This document shows, in pieces, positions 24,325 to 52,815 of a stretch of 64,000 bases of DNA. Made by a program: the position numbers and the translations under genes. Numbering within the stretch: position 1 is the first letter of the stretch; every line of letters starts with the position of its first letter. This DNA is from Escherichia coli (GTDB lineage: Bacteria; Pseudomonadota; Gammaproteobacteria; Enterobacterales; Enterobacteriaceae): NCBI RefSeq assembly GCF_003790525.1, contig NZ_CP033635.1, one strand, 5' to 3'. The notes under the pieces are model-generated. The model ran no database searches. It had not been told where the DNA came from and saw only the letters and a list, made by a program, of their open reading frames with translations.

Positions 24325-24330
24325 TCGATC

Positions 24331-25038: not shown

Positions 25039-25041
25039 GAG

Positions 25042-27613: not shown

Positions 27614-27692
27614 GGAGAATGTCCTTATACGTTCTCAGAACAGGCAGCAAAAAAACAAATGAGATCAAGGTAATATATCTTCACTTGCAGGC

Positions 27693-28622
27693 TTGAACAG
27701 CAGAAAATTTGCGAGCATGATCGCAACTATTTCACTGCCAGGGATATCAATGGCTTCCAGTAAATCGCTACAGCAGGCAATCGCCAATATAAAAATCTGG
27801 CACAAGGGTGAACAGCGCGCGCCGCATAAACCATTGTTACTGCTATACGTATTAGCGGGATACCTGAATGGGCATCCGCGCCTTTTCGATTATGGATTGG
27901 AAATCTACGAACCTCTGCACAATTTACTGGAACGTTTTGGGCCACAGCGTTCACAGTACCGACCTGATATGCCGTTCTGGCGATTACAAGGCGACGGATT
28001 CTGGCAATTACACAATGCCGAGCTTTGCTCAACAGCAGGGAGCAGCCGACAACCGCCAGTGAAGGAACTGAACGAATACCACGTTGCAGGCGGTTTCGAT
28101 GAACAGCACTACGCCCTGGTAACCGGCAATAAAAAACTCATCAATACTCTGGCGCAACAGATACTCGAAGCGCACTTCACCGAGAGTATTCAGGAAGAAA
28201 TTGCTGACGAGCTGGGTTTTGATCTCCAGCAAATCCGTAAACAGCGTGACCCGTTATTTCGCAAAAATGTATTACGCGCTTATAACTACCAGTGCGCGAT
28301 ATGTGGCTTTAATATGCGCCACGACGACACCACCGTCGCGCTGGAAGCGGCGCATATAAAATGGAAACAGCACGGCGGTCCTTGTGAAATTCCTAATGGC
28401 CTGGCGCTTTGCGCAATTCACCATAAAGCCTTTGATAAAGGATCGATTGGCCTGGATGAAAATATGCGGGTACTGGTCTCGGATGCGGTAAACGGCGGAG
28501 GGATCGTTGAGAGATTATTCTGGGATTTTGATGGGAAAACTATTGCGTTGCCACAGGTGCGTAAAAATTACCCTTTTGAGGGGTTTGTGGAGTGGCATCG
28601 AAAAGAGGTTTTTAGGGGGTGA
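27693..28622 (+). CDS. HNH endonuclease-domain protein with unassigned N-terminal domain (candidate modification-dependent nuclease)
   Basis: 309 aa ORF with C-terminal HNH-like motif YQCAICGFNMRHDDTTVALEAAHIKW...LALCAIHHKAFD. The N-terminal roughly 180 aa are of unknown fold. Confidence 0.5.
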   Translation: MNSRKFASMIATISLPGISMASSKSLQQAIANIKIWHKGEQRAPHKPLLLLYVLAGYLNGHPRLFDYGLEIYEPLHNLLERFGPQRSQYRPDMPFWRLQGDGFWQLHNAELCSTAGSSRQPPVKELNEYHVAGGFDEQHYALVTGNKKLINTLAQQILEAHFTESIQEEIADELGFDLQQIRKQRDPLFRKNVLRAYNYQCAICGFNMRHDDTTVALEAAHIKWKQHGGPCEIPNGLALCAIHHKAFDKGSIGLDENMRVLVSDAVNGGGIVERLFWDFDGKTIALPQVRKNYPFEGFVEWHRKEVFRG

Positions 28623-28733
28623 GGTTGATAACTATCGCGTCCCTATAATCTTGCCATCTCGTGCATTGAGATGTTAAAAGCTACAAATGTTCTCCCTATT
28701 TTTCAATGTAGACATTTATAGCAATATCAAAAT

Positions 28734-39054: not shown

Positions 39055-39229
39055 AACATTCTCCCTCTGAGACGGAAGCCACTATAGTACTCGCCCGCCA
39101 ATTAAGCAAAGAAACTTTGCTTAATTTTTATTTATAGCAATGTTATTTGTTTTGATGTCATTCGCCTTCTATACTCAGTCGGTATATCAAACCGCAATTG
39201 ATTAACCTGCAAATAAGAATAAAACTGAT

Positions 39230-40123
39230 ATGTACTACTCAAAGTTTCTTGAGAAACACAAATCCCCCCTCAGCCACGCACAATGGTTGCGCTTGCGCTA
39301 TATTGAGCGCCAGCTACTGTGGGAACGAAAGGTCACTTCGCGCATGATTGCTGAAGAGTTTGGCGTCTCGGCGCAACAAGCTCGTACTGATGTAAGAACC
39401 TATATGGAGGTCGCTCCAGGCAATGCTATTGAGAAGGGGGCCGGCCGAAAAGGGTATTTCCCCAGTACGACGTTTACGCCTGTTTTGCTGGGAGACAACG
39501 ATCTGGTCTGGCGTACGACGGTAGAATTTCAACCGCCGCAAGCGGCCCACGCGCAGGAAATCCCGCTCATCCATCGCGCAGTGCATAGCCGCACGCTGGC
39601 AATTTTTTTGTCAGCAATCGAACAGAAAGGACAAGTAAAAGTGACTTATGCGTCAATGGAAAACCCGGAAGGCATATCTCGTACACTAAGCCCTACGGTA
39701 ATTATCACCGTTAACGGGCGTCAGCATGTGCGAGCCTATGACTGGGGAAGTTCGGCGTTTAAGGACTTTGTTTTGGCGCGATTTCTGGACTTGCCGGAAC
39801 TGATTGTTCCTGCACCCGCCCCGCCACGCAAAGATACCGCGTGGGAGGTCATAATCCCCGTGCGTTTTATAGCCAATCCAACACTAAACAAAGCGCAACA
39901 AGAGGTAATTAAGCGGGACTATTTACTTGAACCCTCTGAATTCAACATTCGTGCACCAATGATTTTTTATTTATGCCCTGAAAACAATCTGCCTAAAACA
40001 GATGATGAATATGCACAAGCTACTGACGCCAGCAGCCACGGCCCCTTTATCTACCCTGTTCTAGCTGTGCACGCCCAAACAGGGGAGCCTATTCATAAGT
40101 ACCGCCATGCAGGTGAGAGATAG
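39230..40123 (+). CDS. Candidate HTH/WYL-domain transcriptional regulator, divergent from the Wadjet operon
   Basis: 297 aa ORF with an N-terminal HTH-like segment (SRMIAEEFGVSAQQARTDVRTY) and a central region resembling a WYL domain. Divergently transcribed from the jetA-like gene with a 175-bp shared intergenic region. Confidence 0.4.
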   Translation: MYYSKFLEKHKSPLSHAQWLRLRYIERQLLWERKVTSRMIAEEFGVSAQQARTDVRTYMEVAPGNAIEKGAGRKGYFPSTTFTPVLLGDNDLVWRTTVEFQPPQAAHAQEIPLIHRAVHSRTLAIFLSAIEQKGQVKVTYASMENPEGISRTLSPTVIITVNGRQHVRAYDWGSSAFKDFVLARFLDLPELIVPAPAPPRKDTAWEVIIPVRFIANPTLNKAQQEVIKRDYLLEPSEFNIRAPMIFYLCPENNLPKTDDEYAQATDASSHGPFIYPVLAVHAQTGEPIHKYRHAGER

Positions 40124-40269
40124 ACATTCTGTTTACTAATAATTTATAGCCATTCACTGTTCCTGCATCATAGATATGGTGCAGCAACATTAAACACCAG
40201 CCATCTAAAAATTATGATTTATTAATTTCTGATTCAGTTAAATTCCTCTGAAAATAGATCCGTTATAGT

Positions 40270-40530
40270 TCCATGCATCTTTTGAAATCCCGACCAAATA
40301 ATGGGGTCGGCAAACATCTATTTGAGACGTTGGTTCTCATCCTCAAGATCTTTGATTATTTTAATATCAGAAGATTCCATACCACCGTATCTGGACTTCC
40401 AGTTGTAGTAAGTGGCTCAGAGAAGCCTGCCTCCCGGCAGACATCTTTAACAGTTCGCCCGTATTCAAGCGATTTAATCACGGCGATAATCTGATGCTCA
40501 GTAAAAGGGGCTTTACGCATAGCGATCTCC
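40270..40530 (-). pseudogene. IS3-family transposase OrfA remnant (frameshifted and truncated)
   Basis: Minus-strand translation MRKAPFTEHQIIAVIKSLEYGRTVKDVCREAGFSE..., then a frame break, then ...DIKIIKDLEDENQRLK*. Only about 260 bp of the element remains. Confidence 0.5.
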
Positions 40531-40594
40531 TTCATTGGCAGATTGATTATGCCGGAGGATCTCTAAATGTTAATGGCACGATTATGCGGGATAT

Positions 40595-41500
40595 TTACAA
40601 TACCAGTCCAACCCTCAGCTTACTGCAATGCCCATCAAGAGGGATGGTCCACATTGACGTATCAAAATCGCTCTCTGACCAGCGAGCAAAACGCAGCTCA
40701 CTGGATCGAATAAAGATAAGCAGAGTGAGTTCTGTCGCCCAGCGGGTTAGCGGCCTGCCGGTATAGCTGTCTATTTTCTCAAGTAACTCAGGGATGCGCT
40801 TTAACTCCAGCGCCGGACGATGCTGTCGATTACTGGAAGCAACCGCCCCCGCCATCTCCTGCGCCGGATTGTAATGAATTAACCCGCTTTGCACTGCATA
40901 ACGCATGATGGCCGTGGTGCGCTGTTGAAGGCGGGAAGCCACTTCAAAACGTCCAGATTTCTCCACGGCTTTAATGGGAATTAACAGATCGCGGGTGCCC
41001 AGTTCAGCAATATTGCGAGCACCAATTGTTGGGAAGATATTGTCCTCCAGGCTCTTTTTTCCACGATTAGCATGATCTTCCGACCATTTTTGGTTTGTCA
41101 CGAGCCACTCTCTGGCAACCTTCTCGAAAGTAATAATCTCTTTCGCCTGCTCTTCTTTCACAGCACGTTTATGCTCACGAGGATCGATACCAGCAGCGAC
41201 CAGCTTTCTGGCCTCTTCCCTTTTCTTCCGCGCATCCGCCAGCGAAACATCCGGGTAAACGCCGAACGCCATCAAATGTTGTTTACCACCAAAACGGAAA
41301 CGAAATCACCAATACTTTGAACCGCCAGGTTTTACAAGTAAAGACATGCCGTCGCCGTCAACAAGTGAATACTCTTTCTCCTCTGACTTCACAGAACGAA
41401 CTTTAGTATCCGTTAGGGCAATAATGGTCTTCCTTCCATTGGTATCTCGTGAGTATACAAGCAATATCGAATCGGCAAATATACTCATAAGTATACTCAC
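40595..41500 (-). pseudogene. P4-type tyrosine integrase, decayed (frameshifted, catalytic C-terminus missing)
   Basis: Two ORF fragments: 41306-41500 (...LTDTKVRSVKSEEKEYSLVDGDGMSLLVKPGGSKYW) and 40595-41275 (...GVYPDVSLADARKKREEARKLVAAGIDP...RFARWSE...). Both resemble the N-terminal two-thirds of the intact integrase at 51562-52815. Confidence 0.6.
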
Positions 41501-41622
41501 AAGCCTGTTGATGTGGGTTGAGTCAGGTTGACTTCAGTTGAGAAGAAAAGCTGGAAAAGCCTTGCGTGGCGCGGATTTCAGGCATAAAAAAAGACCTCAG
41601 TTGAGGTCTATTTACATACTTT

Positions 41623-41645
41623 TGGTGCGAAGGCCGGACTCAAAC
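41623..41645. repeat. Degenerate copy of the leuX 3' end (att remnant / tandem-island junction)
   Basis: tggtgcgaaggccggactcaaac matches the leuX 3' end tggtgccgaaggccggactcgaac at 52979-53002 except for one deletion and one substitution. Confidence 0.6.
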
Positions 41646-41847
41646 ATCAAAATAAGTTAATGATAAAAAACAAATAATAAAACACAACAATGAAATATGC
41701 CCCCTTTTGTGCCCCCACTGTTTTTCTGACCAATCTATTTTCAGCCCATCAATAAATCGGAAAGTTAAATCATTTTTAATCAGTAAGTTTGGATCCGTAG
41801 CTCGGCTCCAAACCAGTGCATCTTTTATCCACATAAAAAATTTTTTT

Positions 41848-42135
41848 TCGAAAGAACTGTTCACACTGTTCACCTTTCTGTTTTCTCCTTTTATTTCATA
41901 GTGATAGGTGGTGAATAATGGGTGAAGGGTGAACATTCGATTCTTCACCTCCGGCATTCTGCCGGTGTGACTTGTGCAGGGGATTAATTTCCCGTGCTGA
42001 AATCACACCGGAAGAAAAAAGTTTTTTTTGATTTGATTGTTCACACTGTTCACCTTTCGTTTTTCTCTTTTAATTTCAGTGTGATAACGGGTGAATATAC
42101 GGTGAAGGGTGAACAGTGGATTGTTCACCTTCGGG
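41848..42135. repeat. P4 crr-like cis-replication region: two roughly 110-bp direct repeats carrying TGTTCACC iterons
   Basis: Near-identical units at about 41848-41950 and 42020-42135 separated by about 70 bp. Each contains TGTTCAC(A/C)CTGTTCACC and inverted GGTGAA copies. Confidence 0.6.
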
Positions 42136-42146
42136 GAATTCAGGGA

Positions 42147-42172
42147 TAAAAAAAGACCGGCAGATGCCGGTC
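42147..42172 (-). terminator. Intrinsic terminator downstream of the alpha gene
   Basis: GACCGGCA..TGCCGGTC hairpin followed on the minus strand by a T7 run, a few nt after the alpha stop. Confidence 0.55.
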
Positions 42173-42179
42173 AGGTGGG

Positions 42180-44513
42180 TCAGGCTGTTGCAGGGTCGTC
42201 ACATTTTGGCAGCCAGTCGCCGTAGCTTTCCTCTTTCAGCGTCAGGTTGGTCTGTATCCCCTGTTTGGTATGGCGCTTCTCGTAATTCAGTCCGTATTCC
42301 TTCAGCATCACCGGCAGCCCCAGCCCGAACATTTTCAGACTGAGTACATTCCGGTAGCCGTTTGCCTCCATGTAGGCCAGATAGGCGTGATAGAGGTATT
42401 TACGGTAATTGCGCGGGATGATACTGGCGTTCCCCATATACATGCCGCTGGTCTGCGGCAGGGTTTCCAGATAGCCGATAAAATCAAACGTCGGGTCGGC
42501 ATCCCGTTTGATGTTCAGTGCCTCGTCTGAGTTCTGCTGGGACTGAAGCAGTGACCGGGCGAGCATCGGGTCGCTGAACTTCTGCATCAGGTGACGCACG
42601 ATGACCGCCAGCTCGCGGGTGATTTTGTCCTTAAGCTGCGGGTCGCGCTCCTGCGGGGCTATCTGTTCCGGGAAGTGAATAATCACCCGCCGGCGTGACA
42701 CGCCGCCGCTGCGGTCGGTGAAGCGCATCGGGTTATTGTTCACGGCCAGAATTACCGCCGGGATATGCGTGGAGTATGCATCCCGGTATTTCGGGTCAAC
42801 GGACACCGCATCGCCGCCGGTGATGGCCTTGAGTCCGGCACCGTCGCCGCTCCATTTTTCCTGGTCCGGCAGGCGTATCAGTGAGAAGCCAGTTAACGCG
42901 GCACGTTCACGCGGGGATTCCAGCGTCTCGATGGTGGCCGACGTGGCGTTATCCTCCCCGGCCAGCAGGGTGGCTATTTCGGCCATGATACTTTTGCCGC
43001 TGCCGCCGGGACCGGTCACCTCCAGAAAGAGCTGCCAGTCGTAGCGGTTTGCCAGCACCATAAACAGTGCGGCCAGAATCACGTCGCGTTTTTCCGCACG
43101 GCCACCGGCGGCACGGTCAAGCCAGCACCAGAACGCGGGGGCGTGGGTCTCCAGCGTTTCACCGTCCACCGGCGGGGTGAAATCCACATCGCACAGGGTG
43201 CGCATCCAGTGTGACGGACTGTGCGGGTGGAACGTGCCGTTCTGCGTGTCGAGCACGCCGTTACGAAAGCCAATCAGGCGGCGGGAGGGGGCTTCCTGCT
43301 GCGGAATAATCAGCTTCAGGGTGTCCACCACGGAGGCCACCTTCCCGGAGGAGAACGGCGCGCGCAGACGCTGAAACAGCCCGGCCACATCCCGGGCAAA
43401 GTCCTGTGGTGGCAGCACCTTCCAGACACCATTTTCATAACGGGACAGAAGCTGGCCGTTGGCATCGACCGCGAGCGCCTCGCCGTAATGCTCATAGATA
43501 CGCATGGCCTTTTCGCTGGTACTCATGGCGGAAAACTCCGCTTCACTCATGGTGTCGAACGGGCTTTCAGCCGGTGGCCGGATGGCATCGTAAATGGCCT
43601 TACGGGTGGCCTCCCCGCCGTACTGCGTGAAGGCATCATTCCAGTCACCGAAGACCGGTGGCAGGGCAACAACACCTTCACACGCATCTGCGGCTGCGGC
43701 GGCTTTTTTCTGGCCATCACCGCTGAGGTCACGGTCAGCGGCAAGGACAATCTGACAGGCGGGGTGCTTCTGCCGGGCAAGGCTGGCCAGAGAAAGGAGG
43801 TTCACGGAAGAAAGCGCCACCATCACCGTTTCACCGGTCAGGTGATGCACGGTAAGTGCGGTCGCGTATCCCTCCGCTATCCACAGACGTTTTCCGGCCT
43901 GATTCTGTCCTTCAAGGATGTGACAGGTGCCCCTGACCTGTCCGCCTTTCAGGGTGCGCTTACGGCCGTCAGCACTGATTAACTGAAGGTTAACCAGTTC
44001 GCCGCTGTCGTCATACAGTGGCACCACAAGGTCACCGGCGCGCCAGCTCACGCCACCGGCTCTGTGTGTGCCGGTCAGCATCCGGCATTCCCGGCCGGGA
44101 AAGCCCTTGCGGGTCAGGTAGGCGTTACCGGTTCCGGGACGGGTTTTCGCCATCAGGGTTTGTGCCAGTGCGGCGGCGTTCTTCCGGGCAGCGTCTGTTT
44201 CAGCACCGGCGGCAGCCGTCACTGCCGGGTCAGCCGGGGGCAGGCTGCCGGTCACGGCAGCCACCTTTGTGGCCGCGTCGGACGGGGAGACACCAAACAC
44301 CTTTTCAACCAGTTTCAGGCCGTCACCGGCACCACACTGATTGCAGTACCAGGTGCCGCGCCCCTCCCTGTCATCAAAACGGAAGCGGTCACTCCCGCCA
44401 CAGACCGGACAGGGCTGATGACGGTTCTTCAGCACCTGAATCCCCAGCGCCGGGAGAATACGCGGCCAGTGGCCGAGCGCATGGCTGACGGTGGCGGTTA
44501 CGTTCATTTTCAT
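42180..44513 (-). CDS. alpha: P4 alpha-like primase-helicase
   Basis: 777 aa ORF with an N-terminal zinc-binding primase motif (CPVCGGSDRF...YCNQCGAGDG), next to the TGTTCACC iteron clusters. Confidence 0.8.
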   Translation of the reverse strand: MKMNVTATVSHALGHWPRILPALGIQVLKNRHQPCPVCGGSDRFRFDDREGRGTWYCNQCGAGDGLKLVEKVFGVSPSDAATKVAAVTGSLPPADPAVTAAAGAETDAARKNAAALAQTLMAKTRPGTGNAYLTRKGFPGRECRMLTGTHRAGGVSWRAGDLVVPLYDDSGELVNLQLISADGRKRTLKGGQVRGTCHILEGQNQAGKRLWIAEGYATALTVHHLTGETVMVALSSVNLLSLASLARQKHPACQIVLAADRDLSGDGQKKAAAAADACEGVVALPPVFGDWNDAFTQYGGEATRKAIYDAIRPPAESPFDTMSEAEFSAMSTSEKAMRIYEHYGEALAVDANGQLLSRYENGVWKVLPPQDFARDVAGLFQRLRAPFSSGKVASVVDTLKLIIPQQEAPSRRLIGFRNGVLDTQNGTFHPHSPSHWMRTLCDVDFTPPVDGETLETHAPAFWCWLDRAAGGRAEKRDVILAALFMVLANRYDWQLFLEVTGPGGSGKSIMAEIATLLAGEDNATSATIETLESPRERAALTGFSLIRLPDQEKWSGDGAGLKAITGGDAVSVDPKYRDAYSTHIPAVILAVNNNPMRFTDRSGGVSRRRVIIHFPEQIAPQERDPQLKDKITRELAVIVRHLMQKFSDPMLARSLLQSQQNSDEALNIKRDADPTFDFIGYLETLPQTSGMYMGNASIIPRNYRKYLYHAYLAYMEANGYRNVLSLKMFGLGLPVMLKEYGLNYEKRHTKQGIQTNLTLKEESYGDWLPKCDDPATA

Positions 44514-44527
44514 GGTGTTGTTCTCCT

Positions 44528-44848
44528 TCAGTGCAGTACCGGCGCTTTTATGTGACGGGCACAGAGTTCATCCATCACAACCAGCCCGAGAAAGGACAGC
44601 GACGGCGCGGCCTTCAGGGGGCCGGATTCCATTAAATCTTCCAGCAGGGCACAGGCTATCTGACGCCCTTTTTCCTCACCGTGCTGGCGCAGATAAAAGC
44701 CTTCCAGCTCAGCGGCGATGGCCGCCTCCAGTGACTCAAGGGTGAGATGCGGGTAGCGGTGCTGACGTTCGCACACGGTCAGCCAGGCACAGGCGACAGC
44801 GCGACGGTAAAGGGCAGCGCGTAAGACGGGCGGTAAGGGTGTTTTCAT
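44528..44848 (-). CDS. Small P4-type protein (orf106/Cnr-like), function uncertain
   Basis: 106 aa ORF immediately upstream of alpha in the same operon. Confidence 0.45.
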
Positions 44849-44983
44849 TTGTTTTCCTCCCTGTGACAGATGACTGCATTCCGTGCCGGTTGCATTAACT
44901 GATAAGGCATATCTGCGTCTCCTGAAGACGTGCGTATCCCTGCGCGAATACGCACATTTAATTTTTCGGGTGTCGTTTTTTAA

Positions 44984-45439
44984 TTACAGATAATTGCGGT
45001 AACTGTTATCCGGGGTGATTTCCGGGTCAGGCTCCGTGCGGGGAATTTCCCGCCATTCCCGCGCCACCGGTGCCGCCCGGCTGACCGGAACAGTGTCCTG
45101 CGGGTAAATATCCAGATATTTCTCCCGCCATTTCTGTAATTCCGGGTCTCCGGCCATTTCTTTCAGTACCGCATGCCGGTTTACGGGGCTGCGTTTGAAC
45201 AGGTCAGGACGGTCACAGGTAAATTCCCGCAGAAAACGCCCCAGCGGGATGTCTGTGGTGCGCCCGTCGGCGAGGATACGCACAAGGATACTGAATTTAC
45301 GGCGGTACGGGTTCCAGACAATGTCCGGGCAGCGGTACGGCATTTCCCACGGAATACCGTCTTCCAGAATGCCGACCACGGCCACATCGGGAAAACCGGC
45401 AGAACGGTAAATCTCACCGGGCTGGGGAAAATCAAACAT
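44984..45439 (-). CDS. P4 orf151-like protein
   Basis: 151 aa ORF in the epsilon-alpha operon position. Confidence 0.45.
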   Translation of the reverse strand: MFDFPQPGEIYRSAGFPDVAVVGILEDGIPWEMPYRCPDIVWNPYRRKFSILVRILADGRTTDIPLGRFLREFTCDRPDLFKRSPVNRHAVLKEMAGDPELQKWREKYLDIYPQDTVPVSRAAPVAREWREIPRTEPDPEITPDNSYRNYL

Positions 45440-45719
45440 GCGTCCTGTCTCCCCGGTCTTTCTGCTGGGCGAGAAAATCGCGGCACAGGCCTTTGGCTTT
45501 CAGCTCATTCAGCACAAAATCAATATCTTCATTCAGGTAGCTGAAAATATGCGGAATGTAGAGCTGATGCAGGCCGGAGAGTTCACGGTGAATCAAATCA
45601 CCCCCAACAAACTGGGATACGGCGCTGGCGCGGTTGAGCTTATGGTAAGCCTCAATGCTGAGGTGTTCACGGGCGTCATGACGCGCTGAGACGGTCTGAG
45701 GGGCTTTTTTATTACGCAC
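45432..45719 (-). CDS. P4 epsilon-like small protein (putative GTG start)
   Basis: 95-codon frame beginning at a GTG at 45719..45717 ([20 protein letters not shown]...). The longer track ORF 45432-45959 has an implausible N-terminal extension. Confidence 0.35.
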
Positions 45720-46298
45720 GGGACACCTCCACCACCGGCAGACGGGCAGCAAGGGAGAGCACATAGTCACGGACAAGGGAACGGCGGGCGCTGCGTTCAT
45801 CACCGGCGACGGTGCGAAGCATGCAGATACGGGGATGACGGTCTGCGCGACGGACAGCCGCAAACACAAAGACAAATTCAGGGTGTGAGGGGGTAAGGGT
45901 TGTAGCCATAAGGCAGCCTCCTTCGAGTAGCAAATAACTGCTATCGCCGGAGTTCTCACGCTCGATGGCGATAGCCCAGACGGGGGTGAGAATACCGGCC
46001 TCGAAGAATACCGGCCAGCCCGGAGGCTGCCCCGCCTGAGCTACCATTGACTCAGTGGCATAACATGCGATTGCGAACAGGATAATACCTGCACGGCAAA
46101 CCACACGCCACACCATAATCTGGCGCTCTGTGGCGTTGATTGCGACACAAAAAAAGACGCATGGCGCGTCATATGTCGCCTTCGAGTTACACGGGTTCTC
46201 ACGCCCGGCTGCCGATTTTGCGGCAACGGAAAGACTATATCCGCAAATGCCGGAAAAAGGCAAGCCAGAAAAAGGGAGTTTTTGCAGAGCGGGCATCA

Positions 46299-46565
46299 TC
46301 ATGCGTCATACCCCCGTTTGCGTCCGGCAATGCGGCCGGCCATCCATGCGGTGACTTCAGAGTGCAGCCAGGCCACATTTTTACCGCCAAGACTCACCTG
46401 CGGCGGAAATTCCCCCTTACGGATGAGTTCGTAGATGGTCGAGCGTGACAGGCCGCACAGGTGCATCACTTCCGGAAGACGCAAAAAACGCTCCTGTGTG
46501 ATGTCCGGCTGCGGCATCAGTGGCGTCACAGGGGCGGGAGACGGGGAAGAAAAAACAGCTTGCAT
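46299..46565 (-). CDS. vis: Vis/AlpA-family small DNA-binding regulator
   Basis: 88 aa ORF with an AlpA-type HTH ([26 protein letters not shown]), at the head of the leftward operon. Confidence 0.6.
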
Positions 46566-46844
46566 CGGGCTACCTCGTTAATGTCCATACAGCACCGGAT
46601 AAGTCTGTCCGGCTTCGGGTAGCGCTTTATTTTGTGAATATTTTCAGCAGACGCAACAGGGGGGATTTGTTCCGGCAGCCTTACAATGCTTGTGTGTTTT
46701 TTGTTCATCTCCACTTAAAGTCATTTAAAGCCACTTAAAGCAATTCGTAATTTTTATAGTGAAATACAAATCGTTTTTTCTTATTCATTCCCGGCGAATT
46801 AATAAAAACAAACAGTAGTAAACAGCACAAAAAGCCCATCAACG

Positions 46845-46948
46845 GGTGAACAGTGGTGAACAGACGGTGAACAGTCATTACTGCGATTGTTCACCCTTTA
46901 ACTTACTGTATTACTTATCTTTTTTCTTATGGCGAACAGAGGTGAACA
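46845..46948. repeat. ori-like iteron cluster (GGTGAACAG repeats)
   Basis: Three tandem GGTGAACAG copies at 46845-46874 with 1-2 bp spacers, an inverted TGTTCACC at 46888-46895, and further copies at 46932-46948. Confidence 0.5.
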
Positions 46949-47117
46949 GTAAAATATAAAAAAACAAACAGTAAGACGGTTTTTCCTGCGACCTTTTCCT
47001 GGCTTGCCGGTGTGAGGATGAGTCTCCTGTGTCAGGGCTGGCACATCTGCAATGCGTCGTGTTGTTGTCCGGTGTACGTCACAATTTTCTTAACCTGAAG
47101 TGACGAGGAGCCGGAAA

Positions 47118-47852
47118 ATGTCTGACAACACCATCCCTGAATATCTGCAACCCGCGCTGGCACAACTGGAAAAGGCCAGAGCCGCCCATCTTGAGAACGC
47201 CCGCCTGATGGATGAGACCGTCACGGCCATTGAACGGGCAGAGCAGGAAAAAAATGCGCTGGCGCAGGCCGACGGAAACGACGCTGACGACTGGCGCACG
47301 GCCTTTCGTGCAGCCGGTGGTGTCCTGAGCGACGAGCTGAAACAGCGCCACATTGAGCGCGTGGCACGCCGGGAGCTGGTACAGGAATATGACAATCTGG
47401 CCGTGGTGCTGAATTTTGAACGCGAACGCCTGAAAGGGGCGTGTGACAGCACGGCCACCGCCTACCGGAAGGCACATCATCACCTGCTGAGTCTGTATGC
47501 AGAGCATGAGCTGGAACACGCCCTGAATGAAACCTGTGAGGCGCTTGTCCGGGCAATGCATCTGAGCATTCTGGTACAGGAAAATCCGCTCGCCAACACC
47601 ACCGGGCATCAGGGCTACGTCGCACCCGATAAAGCTGTCATGCAGCAGGTGAAATCATCGCTGGAACAGAAAATAAAACAGATGCAAATCAGCCTCACCG
47701 GCGAGCCGGTTCTCCGGCTGACCGGACTGTCAGCGGCAACACTCCCGCACATGGATTATGAGGTGGCAGGCACACCGGCACAGCGCAAGGTGTGGCAGGA
47801 CAAAATAGACCAGCAGGGAGCAGTGCTTAAGGCCAGAGGACTGCTGTCATGA
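47118..47852 (+). CDS. sid: P4 Sid-like capsid size determination protein
   Basis: 244 aa from the internal ATG (MSDNTIPEYLQPALAQLEKARAAHLENARLMDE...). Stop overlaps the delta start (ATGA). Confidence 0.75.
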   Translation: MSDNTIPEYLQPALAQLEKARAAHLENARLMDETVTAIERAEQEKNALAQADGNDADDWRTAFRAAGGVLSDELKQRHIERVARRELVQEYDNLAVVLNFERERLKGACDSTATAYRKAHHHLLSLYAEHELEHALNETCEALVRAMHLSILVQENPLANTTGHQGYVAPDKAVMQQVKSSLEQKIKQMQISLTGEPVLRLTGLSAATLPHMDYEVAGTPAQRKVWQDKIDQQGAVLKARGLLS

Positions 47853-48349
47853 TTTACTGCCCGTCGTGTGGACATGTTGCTCACACCCGTCGCGCACATT
47901 TCATGGACGATGGCACCAAGATAATGATTGCACAGTGCCGGAATATTTATTGCTCTGCGACATTTGAAGCGAGTGAAAGCTTTTTCTCTGACAGTAAAGA
48001 TTCAGGAATGGAATACATTTCAGGCAAACAGAGATACCGCGATTCACTGACGTCAGCCTCCGGCAGTATGAAACGCCCGAAAAGAATGCTTGTTACCGGA
48101 TATTGTTGTCGGAGATGTAAAGGCCTTGCACTGTCAAGAACATCGCGGCGTCTGTCTCAGGAAGTCACCGAGCGTTTTTATGTGTGCACGGATCCGGGCT
48201 GTGGTCTGGTGTTTAAAACGCTTCAGACCATCAACCGCTTCATTGTCCGCCCGGTCACACCGGACGAACTGGCAGAAAGCCTGCATGAAAAACAGGAACT
48301 GCCGCCAGTACGGTTAAAAACACAATCATATTCGCTGCGTCTGGAATGA
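47849..48349 (+). CDS. delta: P4 Delta-like late-gene activator (tandem Ogr-type zinc fingers)
   Basis: 166 aa ORF with two zinc-finger modules (MIYCPSCGHVAH...CRNIYC and CCRRCKGLAL...CTDPGC). Confidence 0.8.
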   Translation: MIYCPSCGHVAHTRRAHFMDDGTKIMIAQCRNIYCSATFEASESFFSDSKDSGMEYISGKQRYRDSLTSASGSMKRPKRMLVTGYCCRRCKGLALSRTSRRLSQEVTERFYVCTDPGCGLVFKTLQTINRFIVRPVTPDELAESLHEKQELPPVRLKTQSYSLRLE

Positions 48350-48422
48350 GGGCTGCCGGTTAACACCGGCCGTCGCCGCACACCGTATTTTTATTCTTCA
48401 GCATGATGAGAAAGAGATAACG

Positions 48423-48995
48423 ATGGAAAGCACAGCCTTACAGCAGGCCTTTGACACCTGCCAGAATAACAAAGCAGCATGGCTGCAACGCAAAAATGAG
48501 CTGGCTGCGGCCGAACAGGAATATCTGCGGCTTCAGTCCGGGGAAGGCAGAAACGTCAGTCGCCTTGACGAATTACGCAATATTATCGAAGTCAGAAAAT
48601 GGCAGGTGAATCAGGCCGCCGGTCGTTATATTCGTTCGCATGAAGCCGTTCAGCACATCAGCATCCGCGACCGGCTGAATGATTTTATGCAGCAGCACGG
48701 CACAGCACTGGCGGCGGCACTGGCACCGGAGCTGATGGGCTACAGTGAGCTGACGGCCATTGCCCGAAACTGTGCCATACAGCGTGCCACAGATGCCCTG
48801 CGTGAAGCCCTTCTGTCCTGGCTTGCGAAGGGTGAAAAAATTAATTATTCCGCACAGGATAGCGACATTTTAACGACCATCGGATTCAGGCCTGACGTGG
48901 CTTCGGTGGATGACAGCCGTGAAAAATTCACCCCTGCGCAGAACATGATTTTTTCGCGTAAAAGTGCGCAACTGGCATCACGTCAGTCTGTGTAA
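48423..48995 (+). CDS. psu: P4 Psu-like polarity suppression protein
   Basis: 190 aa ORF, third gene of the sid-delta-psu late operon. Confidence 0.75.
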   Translation: MESTALQQAFDTCQNNKAAWLQRKNELAAAEQEYLRLQSGEGRNVSRLDELRNIIEVRKWQVNQAAGRYIRSHEAVQHISIRDRLNDFMQQHGTALAAALAPELMGYSELTAIARNCAIQRATDALREALLSWLAKGEKINYSAQDSDILTTIGFRPDVASVDDSREKFTPAQNMIFSRKSAQLASRQSV

Positions 48996-49368
48996 AATTC
49001 CCCGAAAATCCGCCCGTTTTTACTGAAAAAAGCCATGCATCGATAAGGTGCATGGCTTTGCATGCGTTTCCCTGCCTCATTTTCTGCAAACCGCGCCATT
49101 CCCGGCGCGGTCTGAGCGTGTCAGTGAAACTGCATTAAAACCGCCCCGCAAAGCGGGCGGGCGAGGCGGGGAAAGCACTGCGCGCATGATATAAAAGAGT
49201 ATTAAGAATTTTACAGAAACAGCTAATACAGACGCTGAAGTAAAATCATTGAGACCATTCGTGATTTGATGCAAAAAATTGCACAACATAAGCTCCTATG
49301 GTTCATAGTAATACTATTAAACCTATCTTTTCGTTGGTATATTACCCATTTTGTAATGGAGAATTGAA

Positions 49369-51501
49369 ATGCTTTCTACTCAGGATATAAACGGTTTTTT
49401 TAATGCTGTTGACTCTCTCAAAAGGTTTAAACGAGCAGAAATAAGGGACAACAAAGATAAACCACTTATTGATTCACTTTACACAGATCTATTGCCAAAC
49501 AATCACGTCTTCAAAATGTGCTACGGGGAAAACACTACATTTTTAATTGGAAGAAAAGGCACAGGAAAATCCACAATAATTCTTAAACTTGAAAGTGAGT
49601 ACAGAAAAGAATCTTCATACCTCCCATGCTATATAGATACAAAAACAGTATTCGAAAGTGTTAGAGGTGAGTATCAAAAAATAGACTACCTAAAAGGGAA
49701 GATACCTGAAGAGCATCTAGAAAAATATTTAGTCGAGCGTGCATTCATTAAAAACATCTTGAAATCAATCGGTGACGAATTGAATATTCGAGCAGAAAGC
49801 ATATTCTCAAAACTAGCAGGGATTGTTAATGCAAGCAAAAAACAAGCGGTAAAAGCAAAAATAACAAAACTACTTTTAATGGTGGACAATAACCAAATAA
49901 TAAAAGAAATTGAAATACCCGTAATAACAGAAGTAAATACTAAACTTACTAAGGCGAACGAATCAGAAAATGGAACTACCCAAAACTATAACTCTGAGCT
50001 AACTGTAAAAATCGGAACATCACAACATGAAGGTGGTGGAAAAATAGGAGCGGTAAAAGGAATCACCTCAAGACAGAAAAACAATGACGCTTGGGAAAAG
50101 AGTTTCTCTACAGCCCTTCTAAAGGTTTTTCAAATCACATCAGTAATTGAAGAAATTAAAATCATATTAAGAGAGCTAGGAGTAAAAAAGCTTGTAATAT
50201 TTTTAGACGATTTCTCTGAAGTTGAAGAGAAGACGCTAAAAAACTTCGTCGATGTTGTACTTGCTCCGCTAAATAACTGGGCTAATGATTTCATTTGTTT
50301 TAAAGTCGCTGCCTACCCAAGTCGCATATATTATGGCGACATTGATGTTGGCAAAATAGATGTGGTAAATTTAGATTTTTATAATTTATATTCTAATTAT
50401 GATAAATCTACGATGGAATCCTTATCAGCTGACTTCACCAAGAGACTTTTAAATCAAAGGCTTAATCAGTTTTGCACATTGAAGTTTGAAGATTATTTTG
50501 ATACATCTTCAGCTACTCCAGAAGAGTACTATGATCTTATATTTAAAGTATCCATGAATGTCCCTAGAATTATAGGATACATTCTTTATTACTGCCATCA
50601 AACCAATGTATCTCTTGGCAGAAAAATAAATAAAGGCTCAATCGAGAAAGCAGCTCAGACTTATTATGAGCAAGTTGTATCTAAGTTTTTCGATATTGCC
50701 ACGCATAGTCTGATGTCTTTCAGTGAAAAAGTTTCTGAACTTCAGCAAAAAGAGATTCTAAATCTCTTCGTTCAGAAATTAAAAACGATTAAGCGACAAA
50801 TAATAACAAATGAACTAACTGGCACAATTTACAATAGAGACAGAACAAATCCTTATTGTAGTCATTTTTATTTTCAACCTAATCTTGAACATTTTCTGCG
50901 TACATTGGAGCTTAATTTCTTCATTACCAAATATAATGAATTAGTAAATAAAGACGGAAACAAGGTCTCGATATATGGAATAAATTATGGATTAGCTCGA
51001 AGTGAAAACCTCAAATGGGGAAAACCTGAAGGTAATCAGTTCCGTAGTTATTTCGTAGAAAGACCATTTGATTTCAACAAAGATATCGAAGATTTCTTAA
51101 GAGAATCGAAAAAAATCGTATGTCTTAATAGCTCTTGTGATAAAACCTATCCATATGAAGAACTTGCATTTCTTGAATATAATAAAATGAGATGTATTGA
51201 ATGCCAGTCGCCTGTTGAAGTAAGATCGTTTTCTGAAAGTATCAGTTCTGAAATATCTAAAATTGACAACGCTAAACTTTTACCAAAATTAGAATTAATG
51301 ATATTACATGAACTGAATAAGGCAGACGATCATCTCCTAGCTCGAGACATTGCTGAGGAACTAGACGCTTCATCACAATTAATTGCCAAACGGGCTGAAA
51401 AATTAGACAGAAAAGGTCTTGTTTTTAGAGATAAAAGTGATGCATTAATTAAGTATTCAATAACAAATAAAGCAGTAGAAGGTTATTTCTATGATGACTA
51501 A
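49369..51501 (+). CDS. Uncharacterised P-loop NTPase with C-terminal zinc ribbon and winged-helix-like domain; candidate anti-phage defence gene in the P4 psu-int hotspot
   Basis: 710 aa ORF, conspicuously AT-rich compared with flanking P4-like genes. Walker A LIGRKGTGKST, Walker B-like LVIFLDDFSEVEE, Cys4 cluster CLNSSCDKTYPYEELAFLEYNKMRCIECQSP, and a C-terminal wHTH-like segment. Confidence 0.6.
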   Translation: MLSTQDINGFFNAVDSLKRFKRAEIRDNKDKPLIDSLYTDLLPNNHVFKMCYGENTTFLIGRKGTGKSTIILKLESEYRKESSYLPCYIDTKTVFESVRGEYQKIDYLKGKIPEEHLEKYLVERAFIKNILKSIGDELNIRAESIFSKLAGIVNASKKQAVKAKITKLLLMVDNNQIIKEIEIPVITEVNTKLTKANESENGTTQNYNSELTVKIGTSQHEGGGKIGAVKGITSRQKNNDAWEKSFSTALLKVFQITSVIEEIKIILRELGVKKLVIFLDDFSEVEEKTLKNFVDVVLAPLNNWANDFICFKVAAYPSRIYYGDIDVGKIDVVNLDFYNLYSNYDKSTMESLSADFTKRLLNQRLNQFCTLKFEDYFDTSSATPEEYYDLIFKVSMNVPRIIGYILYYCHQTNVSLGRKINKGSIEKAAQTYYEQVVSKFFDIATHSLMSFSEKVSELQQKEILNLFVQKLKTIKRQIITNELTGTIYNRDRTNPYCSHFYFQPNLEHFLRTLELNFFITKYNELVNKDGNKVSIYGINYGLARSENLKWGKPEGNQFRSYFVERPFDFNKDIEDFLRESKKIVCLNSSCDKTYPYEELAFLEYNKMRCIECQSPVEVRSFSESISSEISKIDNAKLLPKLELMILHELNKADDHLLARDIAEELDASSQLIAKRAEKLDRKGLVFRDKSDALIKYSITNKAVEGYFYDD

Positions 51502-51561
51502 ATAGAAACTAACAATGAAAAGCTCAACGCTGATTCTAGGGCGTTGAGCTACTTAATAATT

Positions 51562-52815
51562 TTAGATCCTAGCAAAATCATAGGCCGTAATATTTTGATA
51601 TCGATTAATATCTAGATAGTCAGCCCACCATTGCATCATCAAACGACGCTCTTCTAAATGCTCTGAAGTATGAATATAAGCTGCGCGTACATTGTTACGT
51701 TCTGAATGGCTCAATTGACGTTCTATCGCATCATCACTCCATAGTCCCGATTCCCCCAACGCCCCGCGTGCCATAGTCCTAAAACCATGGCCACATACTT
51801 CTGTTTTTGTGTCATATCCCATTACACGCAATGCATTGTTTACCGTATTTTCACTCATAACCTTAGTTGCGTCATGATCGCCCGGGAAAAGAAAGTCTCT
51901 ATCACCACTAATCTGCTTAAGCTGTTCTAACAATATAATCGCCTGTCGGCTAAGCGGAACTATATGCTCCTCTTTCATTTTCATGCCACGATACGAGTAA
52001 CGTACGCCTTTAATTTCTTCTCGTTTAGCAGGAATACGCCAAGTAGCGTTATCAAAATCAAATTCTTTCCAACGAGCAAAACGTAATTCACTTGAACGAA
52101 CAAAAGTTAGTAAAGAAAGCTCAACCGCAATTTTCGTCATCATACGCCCACGATATACATCAAGACGTGCCAAGAACTCATGGAAACGATGTGATGGTAG
52201 CGCCGGGTAGTGCCGCGTTTTCGCCGTAGATAACGCACCGGCCATATCAATTGCAGGATTTGAGTCTACATAATCGTTCTGAACAGCATAGCGCATAATA
52301 GCAGTGACACGTTGCTGAAGACGCTGCGCTACATCATGCTTACCACTGGCATCAACTTTTTTTATCGGTGCCAAAAGGTGACTAGTTTTAAGCTGTCGAA
52401 TATCAGACGAGCCAATATAGGGAAAGATATAAAGCTCTAGATAGCGAAGAACCCGTGCCCGATGTTCCTCACTCCAACGCTTATTGCTGGCATGCCATTC
52501 ACGAGCAATAGTTTCAAAATTATAAGCACCAGCATTAACTGCTTGGGCCTCTTTCTGTACTGCTTTTGGATCTATACCTTGCACCAGCAACTTTTTGGCT
52601 TCATCCCTTCTAGCTCTAGCTTCAGCAAGCGTCACAGTCGGCCAAACACCAAAAGCAAGACGATCCTCTTTTTTGTCGGAAGGTCGTCTATATTTCATAC
52701 GCCAATATTTAGAGCCTTTGACAGAAACCTCGAGGTACAAACCGCCACCATCGGCCATTTTATAGGTTTTATCTTTTGGCTTTGCGGTCTCGACCTGTCT
52801 GGCGTTGAGCTTCAT
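51562..52815 (-). CDS. int: P4-type tyrosine integrase (IntB-like), intact
   Basis: MKLNARQVETAKPKDKTYKMADGGGLYLEV... with a complete C-terminal catalytic region (...HGFRTMARGAL..., ...HSERNNVRAAYIHT). Begins about 165 bp from the leuX 3' end, in the same orientation. Confidence 0.85.
   Translation of the reverse strand: MKLNARQVETAKPKDKTYKMADGGGLYLEVSVKGSKYWRMKYRRPSDKKEDRLAFGVWPTVTLAEARARRDEAKKLLVQGIDPKAVQKEAQAVNAGAYNFETIAREWHASNKRWSEEHRARVLRYLELYIFPYIGSSDIRQLKTSHLLAPIKKVDASGKHDVAQRLQQRVTAIMRYAVQNDYVDSNPAIDMAGALSTAKTRHYPALPSHRFHEFLARLDVYRGRMMTKIAVELSLLTFVRSSELRFARWKEFDFDNATWRIPAKREEIKGVRYSYRGMKMKEEHIVPLSRQAIILLEQLKQISGDRDFLFPGDHDATKVMSENTVNNALRVMGYDTKTEVCGHGFRTMARGALGESGLWSDDAIERQLSHSERNNVRAAYIHTSEHLEERRLMMQWWADYLDINRYQNITAYDFARI

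What the first reader, a model, noticed from the sequence alone, without database searches (positions are those of the whole stretch)
39230..40123. Divergent candidate WYL-type regulator next to the Wadjet operon
Seen in sequence: a 297 aa protein with an N-terminal HTH-like segment and a central WYL-like region, sharing a 175-bp intergenic region (39055-39229) with the jetA-like gene. Established knowledge: HTH-WYL regulators of the BrxR/CapW type commonly repress adjacent defence operons. Inference: this protein may control Wadjet expression here.
Basis: partly seen in the sequence, partly recalled or inferred. Interest (0 to 1): 0.5.

Follow-up and report, generated by a model that had tools for sequence, protein, structure and literature searches.

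The report
BrxR/CapW-type repressor beside Wadjet operon
The gene is a real BrxR/CapW-family DNA-binding regulator that most likely switches the neighbouring anti-plasmid Wadjet operon off by binding a conserved 27-bp palindrome. This pairing is already noted in the literature, and in this strain the Wadjet operon is broken by an insertion sequence.

Summary
ORF 39230-40123 (+, 297 aa) lies 175 bp from, and divergent to, a type III Wadjet operon (jetA3, jetB, jetC3, jetD3).

It is a full-length wHTH-WYL-WCX protein:
- Pfam WYL, E 1.4e-6.
- PDB sequence hits to BrxR 7T8K (3e-28) and CapW 7TB5 (2.5e-23).
- The AlphaFold model's top Foldseek hits are all BrxR or CapW.

RefSeq already names it "WYL domain-containing" or "BrxR family". 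Three papers already note a BrxR/CapW-Wadjet association.

New detail from this work:
- A perfect 12+3+12 palindrome (39100-39126) overlaps the likely -35 of the jetA promoter. It is kept, with compensatory arm changes, in nine loci from different genera.
- The four ssDNA-contacting residues of CapW are present (S142, R164, R168, R184).
- The RWHVR tryptophan is Gln here.
- Seven of the eight nearest protein groups whose context I examined (31-36% identity) also sit divergent to jetA, of type I Wadjet. This points to a Wadjet-associated subfamily.

In this window jetC is cut by IS1414 (31300-32614), so the regulated system is probably dead.

Verdict: a new member of a known kind, of moderate interest. 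DNA binding, repression and the inducing signal are all untested.

The parts
39230..40123 (+). BrxR/CapW-family regulator gene, 297 aa. Approximate domains: wHTH residues 12-80 (nt 39263-39469); linker 81-119 (nt 39470-39586); WYL 120-192 (nt 39587-39805); WCX about 200-297 (nt 39827-40120).
   Evidence: Domain limits are taken from the secondary structure of the model and from alignments to 7T8K, 7TB5 and 9C5G.
39100..39126 (.). Candidate operator: perfect palindrome AATTAAGCAAAG-AAA-CTTTGCTTAATT. It can equally be read as 11+5+11, 27 bp in all.
   Evidence: A 12/12 match occurred in 0 of 4000 shuffles of the intergenic region. It is the only copy in the window at up to 3 mismatches. It is conserved at the same place in 9 loci, with compensatory arm changes.
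39081..39086 (-). Putative -10 hexamer of the jetA promoter (TATAGT on the minus strand).
   Evidence: Read from the sequence. The + strand ACTATA has invariant A, T, T, A at the positions that correspond to T1, A2, A4 and T6 of the hexamer in 9 loci. The simple promoter scan did not call it, because its -35 partner matches only 3 of 6.
39104..39109 (-). Putative -35 hexamer of the jetA promoter (TTGCTT on the minus strand), 17 nt from the -10 and lying inside the left arm of the palindrome.
   Evidence: Sequence and alignment. This is an inference; no transcription start site is mapped.
39170..39175 (+). Putative -10 hexamer of the regulator's own promoter (TATACT).
   Evidence: T, A, A, C, T are invariant in 9 loci. 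Inference.
39136..39152 (+). Conserved block GCAATGTTATTTGTTT. It contains the putative -35 of the regulator promoter (TTGTTT, 39147-39152). It also resembles a degenerate second half-site (GCAA-N6-TTGT).
   Evidence: C, A, A, T, T, T, T, T invariant. The function is not resolved.
37588..39054 (-). jetA (type III), 488 aa.
   Evidence: PADLOC JetA3 PDLC00564, 1136 bits, full length.
36689..37585 (-). jetB-position gene, 298 aa. No family match.
   Evidence: Position and size are conserved in all related cassettes. There is no PADLOC, NCBIfam or Pfam hit.
32615..36686 (-). jetC 5' part, residues 1-1357, cut by the IS. The ORF runs on to a stop at 32601 inside the IS.
   Evidence: PADLOC JetC3 3077 bits, profile positions 1-1358 of 1478. 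It is identical to the intact SMS-3-5 JetC through residue 1357.
31300..32614 (-). IS1414 (IS256 family) insertion, 1315 bp, with an 8-bp target duplication GTCGGGTG. The transposase ORF is 31334-32542.
   Evidence: NCBIfam IS256 transposase 5.9e-129. RefSeq name IS1414. Boundaries come from comparison with SMS-3-5. Target duplication.
30927..31299 (-). jetC 3' remnant. It encodes the signature motif EGSGGQ and the Walker B region.
   Evidence: PADLOC JetC3 profile positions 1374-1478.
29859..30914 (-). jetD (type III).
   Evidence: PADLOC JetD3 PDLC00593, 807 bits. RefSeq: JetD domain-containing protein.

Best explanation
The ORF encodes a homodimeric wHTH-WYL-WCX transcription factor of the BrxR/CapW family. 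The proposed mechanism has four steps. (1) The two winged-helix domains of the dimer bind the 27-bp palindrome at 39100-39126. (2) The left arm of that site covers the -35 element (TTGCTT) of the jetA promoter, whose -10 (TATAGT) lies 17 nt away, so the bound dimer blocks RNA polymerase and keeps jetABCD low. (3) Single-stranded DNA binds the basic pocket of the WYL domain (S142, R164, R168, R184), as shown for CapW. The ssDNA could come from DNA damage, from RecBCD processing, or perhaps from incoming conjugative DNA. (4) The wHTH domains move apart, the dimer leaves the operator, and Wadjet expression rises. Family membership and the existence and conservation of the operator are shown here. 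DNA binding, the direction of regulation and the ligand are inferred from characterised relatives. In this window the circuit would drive an operon whose jetC is truncated by IS1414, so the output is probably non-functional here.
For: Family: PDB sequence hits to BrxR 7T8K (3e-28), CapW 7TB5 (2.5e-23), 7TB6, 9C5G and 7QFZ over residues about 10-256. With a profile the E-values are 1e-49 to 4e-39. The AlphaFold model has mean pLDDT 81.5, and its top 15 Foldseek PDB hits are all BrxR or CapW at probability 1.00. PF26109, PF13280 and PF26107 are on record for homologues. Residues: S142, R164, R168, R184 and the DNA-binding R21, S47 and Q50 are conserved; their roles are described in PMC11662680, PMC9122588 and PMC9122601. 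Operator: a perfect palindrome seen in 0 of 4000 shuffles, unique in the window. Its length and geometry match the characterised BrxR operators: 11+5+11 in E. fergusonii, and 10+5+10 overlapping the -35 in Acinetobacter (PMC9122601, PMC9122589). It sits at the same position in 9 loci from different genera. Across them 82% of arm positions are complementary, 6 of 12 positions show compensatory changes, and covariation is 0.255 against 0.108 in shuffles (1 of 500) and at most 0.081 when the register is slid. Linkage: every relative of 76% identity or more that I examined is divergent to type III jetABCD. This includes 62 of 65 E. coli genomes that carry the gene. Seven more distant relatives (31-36% identity) are divergent to type I jetA. 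Their intergenic regions carry related palindromes; for example L019 has two GCAA-N7-TTGC sites 22 bp apart, where chance gives about one per 26 kb.
Against: There are no binding, expression or transcription-start data. Both proposed -35 hexamers match the consensus at only 3 of 6 positions, and the promoter scan called nothing in the intergenic region. A dimer centred near -39 on a weak -35 could activate rather than repress. The Trp of the RWHVR motif couples ssDNA binding to the linker helices in CapW (PMC11662680). Here it is Gln. The linker is about 10 residues shorter and is modelled with low confidence and no helices. The allosteric route, or the ligand, may therefore differ. The palindrome lies about 21 bp upstream of the regulator's own putative -35, so autoregulation is not explained by this one site.
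Confidence: 0.65

Rival explanations
1. The protein activates jetABCD. It would bind at about -39 over a weak -35 and recruit RNA polymerase, as the WYL activators DriD and PafBC do.
For: The putative -35 (TTGCTT) is only 3 of 6. The palindrome centre lies about 39 bp upstream of the inferred start. DriD and PafBC appear as weaker structural relatives (E 2e-6 to 1e-4). Blankenchip et al. argue that Wadjet ought to be constitutively available (PMC11662680).
Against: Sequence and fold place the protein firmly with BrxR and CapW (E 1e-19 to 1e-15 against 1e-6 for DriD and PafBC). All characterised members of that group are repressors (PMC9122588, PMC9122589, PMC9122601). The Acinetobacter BrxR site also overlaps a -35 and that protein represses (PMC9122589).
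Confidence: 0.12
2. The regulator uses the same architecture but senses a different ligand, or transmits the signal differently, because the coupling Trp is lost and the linker is shortened.
For: RQHVR replaces RWHVR. Gln at this position is confined to the type III-linked clade among the 178 relatives aligned, and the nearest relatives carry L, F, I or V. The linker is 40 residues against about 50, and residues 92-115 have pLDDT below 50.
Against: All four ssDNA-contacting residues are kept. Low pLDDT in a monomer model of a domain-swapped dimer is expected and is not evidence of disorder.
Confidence: 0.15
3. The adjacency reflects co-transfer inside defence islands. The protein regulates only itself or other island genes, not Wadjet.
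For: BrxR homologues occur next to many different systems (PMC9122601). In Brenneria the same regulator also sits 130 bp upstream of brxA of a type I BREX, on the same strand. A clade of 37-40% identity is not next to Wadjet at all.
Against: The pairing persists from 97% down to about 31% identity, and across Wadjet types I and III whose proteins are barely alignable. The conserved operator lies on the jetA side of the intergenic region, over the jetA -35. No second operator copy exists in the window.
Confidence: 0.08

Closest known systems
BrxR of Acinetobacter sp. NEB394 (PDB 7T8K, 7T8L; PMC9122589)
   Same: It is the best sequence and fold match (3e-28; Foldseek 5e-19; 28% identity). It has the same wHTH-WYL-WCX order and a similar length (291 against 297 aa). 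Its operator is a roughly 25-bp dyad overlapping a -35. The S-x-Q-Q recognition-helix motif is shared (SAQQ here, SRQQ in BrxR).
   Different: It regulates BREX and lies co-directionally upstream of brxA, whereas this gene is divergent from Wadjet. It has RWHVR where this protein has RQHVR. Its linker is about 10 residues longer. The operator sequences are unrelated.
CapW (E. coli upec-117, P. aeruginosa PA17 7TB5, S. maltophilia 7TB6, R. leguminosarum 9C5G; PMC9122588, PMC11662680)
   Same: The gene arrangement is the same: divergent genes sharing one promoter region that contains a palindrome. The ssDNA-contacting Ser and three Arg residues are conserved. CapW is a homodimeric repressor released by ssDNA and DNA damage.
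   Different: CapW controls CBASS, and its sites overlap the -10 rather than the -35. CapW's conserved DNA-contact Arg (Sm R32) is Ser37 here. Trp is replaced by Gln in the RWHVR motif.
BrxR of Escherichia fergusonii pEFER (PDB 7QFZ; PMC9122601)
   Same: The operator geometry is 11+5+11, 27 bp, identical in length to the site here. The essential DNA-binding R17 aligns with R21 here. That paper's survey lists Wadjet among the systems found next to BrxR homologues.
   Different: Only about 23-27% identity. It controls a BREX/BrxU island on a plasmid. Its operator lies downstream of the promoter.
DriD and PafBC (WYL-domain transcriptional activators)
   Same: The WYL domain binds ssDNA through the same pocket. 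They are weaker structural hits.
   Different: They are activators, with a different orientation of the WCX domain. Identity is about 13-16%, and Foldseek E-values are about ten orders of magnitude weaker.

Membership tests
BrxR/CapW (wHTH-WYL-WCX repressors) | N-terminal winged helix-turn-helix (Pfam PF26109 WHD_BrxR) | tested here: met
   Alignments to BrxR and CapW start at residues 10-19. PF26109 is on record for homologues of 76-97% identity. The model has H16-32, H37-44, H48-61 and strands 66-68 and 76-78. The Pfam copy used lacks this family and gave only marginal HTH_11 and HTH_10 hits.
BrxR/CapW (wHTH-WYL-WCX repressors) | Central WYL domain with a basic pocket (Ser plus three Arg that contact ssDNA in CapW) | tested here: met
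   Pfam WYL 1.4e-6; PADLOC WYL 2.7e-16. S142, R164, R168 and R184 are present and near-invariant in 178 relatives. Their roles are described in PMC11662680.
BrxR/CapW (wHTH-WYL-WCX repressors) | RWHVR motif, with the Trp packing on linker helix LH1 | tested here: not met
   The motif is RQHVR. W is replaced by Q in all members of the type III-linked clade, and by L, F, I or V in the nearest relatives. 112 of the 178 relatives aligned have W. Both arginines and His-Val are kept.
BrxR/CapW (wHTH-WYL-WCX repressors) | C-terminal WCX domain (PF26107 BrxR_CTD) | tested here: met
   PF26107 is on record for homologues. Alignments to 7T8K and 7TB5 extend to residues about 250-256. The model has pLDDT near 90 over residues 200-297. 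Foldseek alignments span 248-301 columns.
BrxR/CapW (wHTH-WYL-WCX repressors) | Dyad-symmetric operator of about 19-27 bp in the promoter region next to its own gene | tested here: met
   A 27-bp perfect palindrome, conserved with compensatory changes. This shows the sequence feature only.
BrxR/CapW (wHTH-WYL-WCX repressors) | Homodimer that binds the operator and represses transcription; release by ssDNA | not testable with these tools
   This needs SEC-MALS, EMSA or fluorescence polarisation, reporter assays and ssDNA competition.
Wadjet type III (neighbouring operon) | jetA, jetB, jetC and jetD in one operon with type III profiles | tested here: met
   JetA3, JetC3 and JetD3 match PADLOC models at full length. 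The jetB-position gene has no profile hit but is conserved in place and size.
Wadjet type III (neighbouring operon) | Intact SMC-like ATPase JetC | tested here: not met
   IS1414 is inserted after codon 1357. This separates the signature motif and Walker B from the rest of the protein. jetC is intact in E. coli SMS-3-5.

The most novel reading that the evidence does not exclude
The gene may belong to a Wadjet-dedicated subfamily of BrxR/CapW regulators. The subfamily would be marked by an IERQLLW helix, loss of the coupling Trp (RWHVR becomes R[Q/L/F/I/V]H[V/I/L]R), a shortened linker, and operators related to ATGCAAAG-NAA-CTTTGCAT. It would have co-evolved with both type I and type III Wadjet. 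It would make anti-plasmid defence inducible, for example by the single-stranded DNA that enters during conjugation or transformation, rather than constitutive as currently assumed.
Probability: 0.25. Interest if true: 0.65.

Novelty: new member of a known kind. Interest (0 to 1): 0.4.

Why it matters
Wadjet is usually discussed as a constitutively active plasmid-restriction machine. Blankenchip et al. (PMC11662680) point out that its frequent pairing with CapW/BrxR is puzzling. This locus offers a defined experimental system for that question. It has one regulator, one clean 27-bp operator, and an intact version of the cassette in the sequenced E. coli strain SMS-3-5. It could be used to ask whether, and by what signal, Wadjet expression is switched on. 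If the subfamily is dedicated to Wadjet and responds to ssDNA, plasmid entry itself could be the inducer, which would affect how plasmid uptake barriers are understood. For genome annotation, the result shows that the existing label "BrxR family regulator" is correct. It also shows that the Wadjet system in this strain should be scored as disrupted.

Tried and rejected
- NCBIfam gave no family for the regulator, JetA, JetB or JetC at E <= 0.01. The RefSeq name "BrxR family" must therefore rest on other evidence.
- Pfam HTH models alone were not significant.
- The consensus promoter scan found no sigma-70 site in the intergenic region. It flagged the palindrome as terminator-like. I rejected a terminator because no gene reads into it on the + strand and the following T-run is not conserved in other genera.
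- Rfam gave no hit in 38900-40600.
- A hairpin in the regulator's 5' UTR is not better than shuffled sequence (z = -0.59).
- A search for further operator copies in the window found none at up to 3 mismatches. The looser motif GCAA-N7-TTGC occurs at chance frequency elsewhere in the window.
- The close clade is absent from phage records. In the plasmid collection, the only record with a match of 60% identity or more is a 4.9-Mb record that I take to be a chromosome.
- No complete E. coli genome in the collection carries the same IS1414::jetC junction.
- JetB gave no Pfam or PADLOC match.
- I did not run the metagenome-wide locus scan. I judged the sampled contexts sufficient: 9 type III loci, 7 type I loci, and one clade with no Wadjet nearby.

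Full report
**1. The observation**

ORF 39230-40123 (+, ATG start, 297 codons plus stop) exists as described. The nearest upstream gene is on the other strand (37588-39054). That leaves a 175-bp shared intergenic region, 39055-39229.

The neighbouring operon is a type III Wadjet system. PADLOC models match JetA3 (1136 bits, full length), JetC3 (3077 bits) and JetD3 (807 bits). The second gene, 36689-37585, occupies the jetB position. It matches no PADLOC, NCBIfam or Pfam model.

From 23677 to 41647 the window matches the defence island of E. coli SMS-3-5 almost perfectly: 100% identity up to the insertion point and 99.99% after it. The one structural difference is a 1315-bp insertion.

**2. 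What the protein is**

Pfam detects a WYL domain (E 1.4e-6, residues 122-188). It gives only marginal generic HTH hits. A PADLOC WYL model scores 2.7e-16.

Against the sequences of solved structures, the only hits are five proteins:
- BrxR of Acinetobacter, 7T8K, 3e-28.
- CapW of P. aeruginosa, 7TB5, 2.5e-23.
- CapW of S. maltophilia, 7TB6.
- CapW of R. leguminosarum, 9C5G.
- BrxR of E. fergusonii, 7QFZ.

These alignments span residues about 10-256. With a profile of 32 homologues the E-values fall to 1e-49 to 4e-39.

An AlphaFold model has mean pLDDT 81.5 and pTM 0.74. It shows a three-helix winged helix (residues 16-78), a low-confidence linker (92-115), a beta-rich WYL domain (120-192) and an alpha/beta C-terminal domain. 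Its top 15 Foldseek matches in the PDB are all BrxR or CapW chains at probability 1.00. DriD and PafBC follow about ten orders of magnitude behind. TM-scores near 0.5 are what I would expect when a monomer model is compared with chains taken from domain-swapped dimers.

Homologues of 76-97% identity carry the precomputed Pfam families WHD_BrxR (PF26109), WYL (PF13280) and BrxR_CTD (PF26107). RefSeq names the identical protein "WYL domain-containing protein" or, in newer annotations, "BrxR family helix-turn-helix transcriptional regulator". The family assignment is therefore secure and already made in public annotation.

**3. Functional residues**

Blankenchip et al. 2024 (PMC11662680) showed that CapW binds ssDNA through S144, R164, R168 and R184 (R. 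leguminosarum numbering). The last three lie in or near a conserved RWHVR motif. The aligned residues here are S142, R164, R168 and R184. All four are near-invariant among the 178 relatives I aligned.

The DNA-binding Arg that is essential in E. fergusonii BrxR (R17; PMC9122601) aligns with R21. Two of the three recognition-helix positions mutated in CapW (S42 and Q45 in Sm CapW; PMC9122588) align with S47 and Q50. The third, S47 in Sm CapW, aligns with R52 here.

Two differences stand out:
- The motif is RQHVR, not RWHVR. Gln at this position is found only in the type III-linked clade. The nearest relatives have L, F, I or V, and 112 of the 178 relatives have Trp. In CapW this Trp packs on linker helix LH1 and transmits ssDNA binding to the wHTH domains (PMC11662680).
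- The linker is about 40 residues against about 50 in most relatives.

**4. The intergenic region**

It contains a perfect palindrome, AATTAAGCAAAG-AAA-CTTTGCTTAATT (39100-39126).
- A 12/12 match with a 1-5 nt spacer arose in 0 of 4000 shuffles of the region. A match of 11/12 or better arose in 0.3%.
- It is the only copy in the 64-kb window, even allowing 3 mismatches.
- Read as 11+5+11, it has exactly the geometry of the E. fergusonii BrxR operator. It is close to the 10+5+10 Acinetobacter site, which overlaps a -35 (PMC9122601, PMC9122589).

I aligned the intergenic regions of nine cassettes: E. coli, Photorhabdus, Brenneria, Zobellella, Aeromonas, Oceanimonas, Endozoicomonas, a TARA metagenome contig and Carnimonas. 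Five blocks are conserved:
- The jetA ribosome-binding region.
- ACTATA, which reads TATAGT on the jetA strand. The invariant positions are T1, A2, A4 and T6 of a -10 hexamer.
- The palindrome core GCAAAG-N3-CTTTGC.
- A block GCAAT-TTATTTG.
- TATACT, a -10-like hexamer on the regulator strand.

The outer arms of the palindrome differ between genera but change together. Examples are AATTAAGC/GCTTAATT, ATTTAAGC/GCTTAAAT, CATCAGGC/GTCTGATG and AATGC/GCAT. Scored formally:
- 82% of arm cells are complementary.
- 6 of 12 positions show changes on both arms.
- The covariation score is 0.255, against 0.108 in shuffles (reached in 1 of 500) and at most 0.081 when the register is slid.

The TATAGT hexamer (39086 to 39081 on the minus strand) lies 17 nt from TTGCTT (39109 to 39104). 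That hexamer is inside the left arm of the palindrome. A bound dimer would therefore cover the -35 of the jetA promoter.

These promoter assignments are inferences. The consensus scan called nothing, because both -35 hexamers match only 3 of 6 positions.

**5. Linkage to Wadjet**

Every relative of 76% identity or more that I could place is divergent to a type III jetABCD cassette. Protein identities of the regulator and of JetA, JetB and JetD fall roughly in parallel between genera.

In E. coli the gene is in 66 of 5426 complete genomes. In 65 of them the match covers at least 80% of the query. In 62 of those, jetA, the intergenic region and the regulator are contiguous.

A search of 1.84 billion cluster representatives shows this clade to be one isolated 50%-identity cluster. 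The next relatives are at 40% identity or less, and only 13 clusters score below E 1e-30.

Of the nearest outgroup clusters, six are divergent to a type I jetA. They are P0039, P0042, P0043, P0044, P0046 and P0047, at 31-36% identity. A seventh relative, on a Vibrio nigripulchritudo megaplasmid (33.5% identity), is arranged the same way.

One clade of 37-40% identity, from Oceanospirillaceae and Marinobacterium, is not near any Wadjet genes.

The outgroup intergenic regions carry related dyads:
- Two GCAA-N7-TTGC sites 22 bp apart in L019, where chance gives about one per 26 kb.
- Tandem ATGCCAAATAATTTGCCAT-like repeats in L025.
- CATGGCAATTATGTTGCCAT in L021.
- ATGTCAATAAAGTTGACAT in L024.

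The N-terminal helix IERQLLW and the recognition helix (SAQQARTD here, SKQQARKD in P0039) are shared.

Together this argues for a Wadjet-associated subfamily rather than chance adjacency.

**6. Mechanism**

The best-supported reading is a CapW-like circuit. A dimer sits on the palindrome and occludes the jetA -35. ssDNA binding in the WYL pocket then releases it.

What is shown here:
- Family membership.
- Conservation of the ligand-contact and DNA-contact residues.
- The existence, uniqueness and symmetry-preserving evolution of the operator.
- Conserved linkage to jetA.

What is inferred:
- DNA binding.
- Repression rather than activation.
- ssDNA as the signal.
- The promoter positions.

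The Trp-to-Gln change and the short linker leave room for a different allosteric route. The palindrome is about 21 bp upstream of the regulator's own putative -35. Autoregulation, if it occurs, may use the degenerate second site (GCAATGTTATTTGT, 39136-39149), but that is speculative.

**7. State of the system in this window**

IS1414, an IS256-family element, is inserted at 31300-32614 with an 8-bp target duplication, GTCGGGTG. It cuts JetC after residue 1357. That point is immediately before the ABC signature motif (EGSGGQ) and the Walker B region. The ATPase, and hence Wadjet, is very probably inactive in this strain. The regulator and operator are intact. No complete E. coli genome in the collection has this junction.

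**8. Comparison with what is known, and novelty**

Picton et al. list Wadjet among the systems next to BrxR homologues (PMC9122601). Blankenchip et al. 2024 and Chambers et al. state that CapW/BrxR is associated with Wadjet (PMC11662680, PMC11601596). Full-text searches found no paper that characterises a Wadjet-linked WYL regulator.

The finding is therefore a correct identification of a new, uncharacterised member of a known kind. The additions from this analysis are:
- The operator and its covariation.
- The subfamily-level link to both type I and type III Wadjet.
- The RQHVR variant.
- The IS disruption of jetC.

Interest is moderate, at 0.4. The locus makes testable the open question of why an anti-plasmid system that is expected to be constitutive carries a damage-responsive repressor. 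Nothing in it contradicts current models.

Noticed in passing
window 31300-32614 (IS); jetC fragments 32615-36686 and 30927-31299: IS1414 (IS256 family) is inserted in jetC with an 8-bp target duplication, GTCGGGTG. It cuts JetC after residue 1357, just before the signature motif and Walker B. The same island in E. coli SMS-3-5 has an intact jetC of 1478 aa. No complete E. coli genome in the collection shares this junction.
   Followed up: yes
L023 (Vibrio nigripulchritudo plasmid NZ_AP027047.1), locus 2026-6748: A type I Wadjet on a 351-kb conjugative megaplasmid is also paired with a divergent WYL regulator. Its jetC is split by an IS3-family transposase. This is a second IS-inactivated jetC among the few loci I examined.
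   Followed up: partly
L017 (Brenneria goodwinii), 10001-20894: The same regulator (86% identity) sits between the type III Wadjet (divergent) and a type I BREX operon (brxA-brxB-brxC-pglX-pglZ). The BREX operon starts 130 bp downstream on the same strand, which is the position BrxR normally occupies. Only one GCAA-N7-TTGC site is present in that locus, so BREX might be read through from the regulator's promoter.
   Followed up: partly
window 36689-37585 (-): The gene in the jetB position (298 aa) has no hit in PADLOC, NCBIfam or Pfam. It is nevertheless conserved in place and size, at 79-93% identity, in every related cassette.
   Followed up: partly
window 39136-39149 and 39186-39205: Two further conserved intergenic elements remain unexplained. 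One is the block GCAATGTTATTTG, just upstream of and overlapping the regulator's putative -35; it could be a degenerate second operator. The other is a weak inverted repeat, TATCAA...TTGAT, in the regulator's 5' UTR, whose RNA fold is no better than shuffled sequence.
   Followed up: partly
window 4780-29732: The regulator and Wadjet lie at the end of a large defence island. The island holds a type IIG RM or DrmMI-like enzyme (4780-9702), a DrmD-like SNF2 helicase (9705-12563) and Druantia type III (druE 12787-19110, druH 19101-22460). It also holds Zorya type II (zorA2, zorB2, zorE, 22615-26145), an HNH endonuclease (26972-27613) and a phosphorothioate-dependent restriction endonuclease (27693-28622). 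The last gene is a PDC-S11 candidate (28734-29732).
   Followed up: partly
window 40124-53063: Downstream of the regulator are transposase and integrase pseudogene fragments (40.3-41.3 kb). From 41648 the sequence is absent from the SMS-3-5 island. It carries a P4-family primase (42180-44513) and a 421-aa ORF (51562-52827) that is not annotated here. That ORF lies next to tRNA-Leu(CAA) at 52979-53063.
   Followed up: no
L004-L006, L011-L015 (Oceanospirillaceae and Marinobacterium): The clade of 37-40% identity, which has Leu in place of the RWHVR Trp, is not near Wadjet or any other recognisable defence system. It lies in a housekeeping-like neighbourhood, about 625 bp from a divergent ABC-transporter gene.
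   Followed up: partly
window 40066-40123; E. coli O157:H7 TR01 NZ_CP033605.1 5430069-5430126: The last 58 bp of the regulator gene occur at 100% identity in an O157:H7 genome, under the annotated phosphorothioate-dependent endonuclease gene. This may be a recombination or deletion scar of the cassette.
   Followed up: no
L016 (Aeromonas hydrophila), 1-1632: A Bub-type ubiquitin-like operon fragment (Multi_ubiq, DUF6791, BubE) lies directly beside jetD of the regulator-linked type III Wadjet.
   Followed up: no
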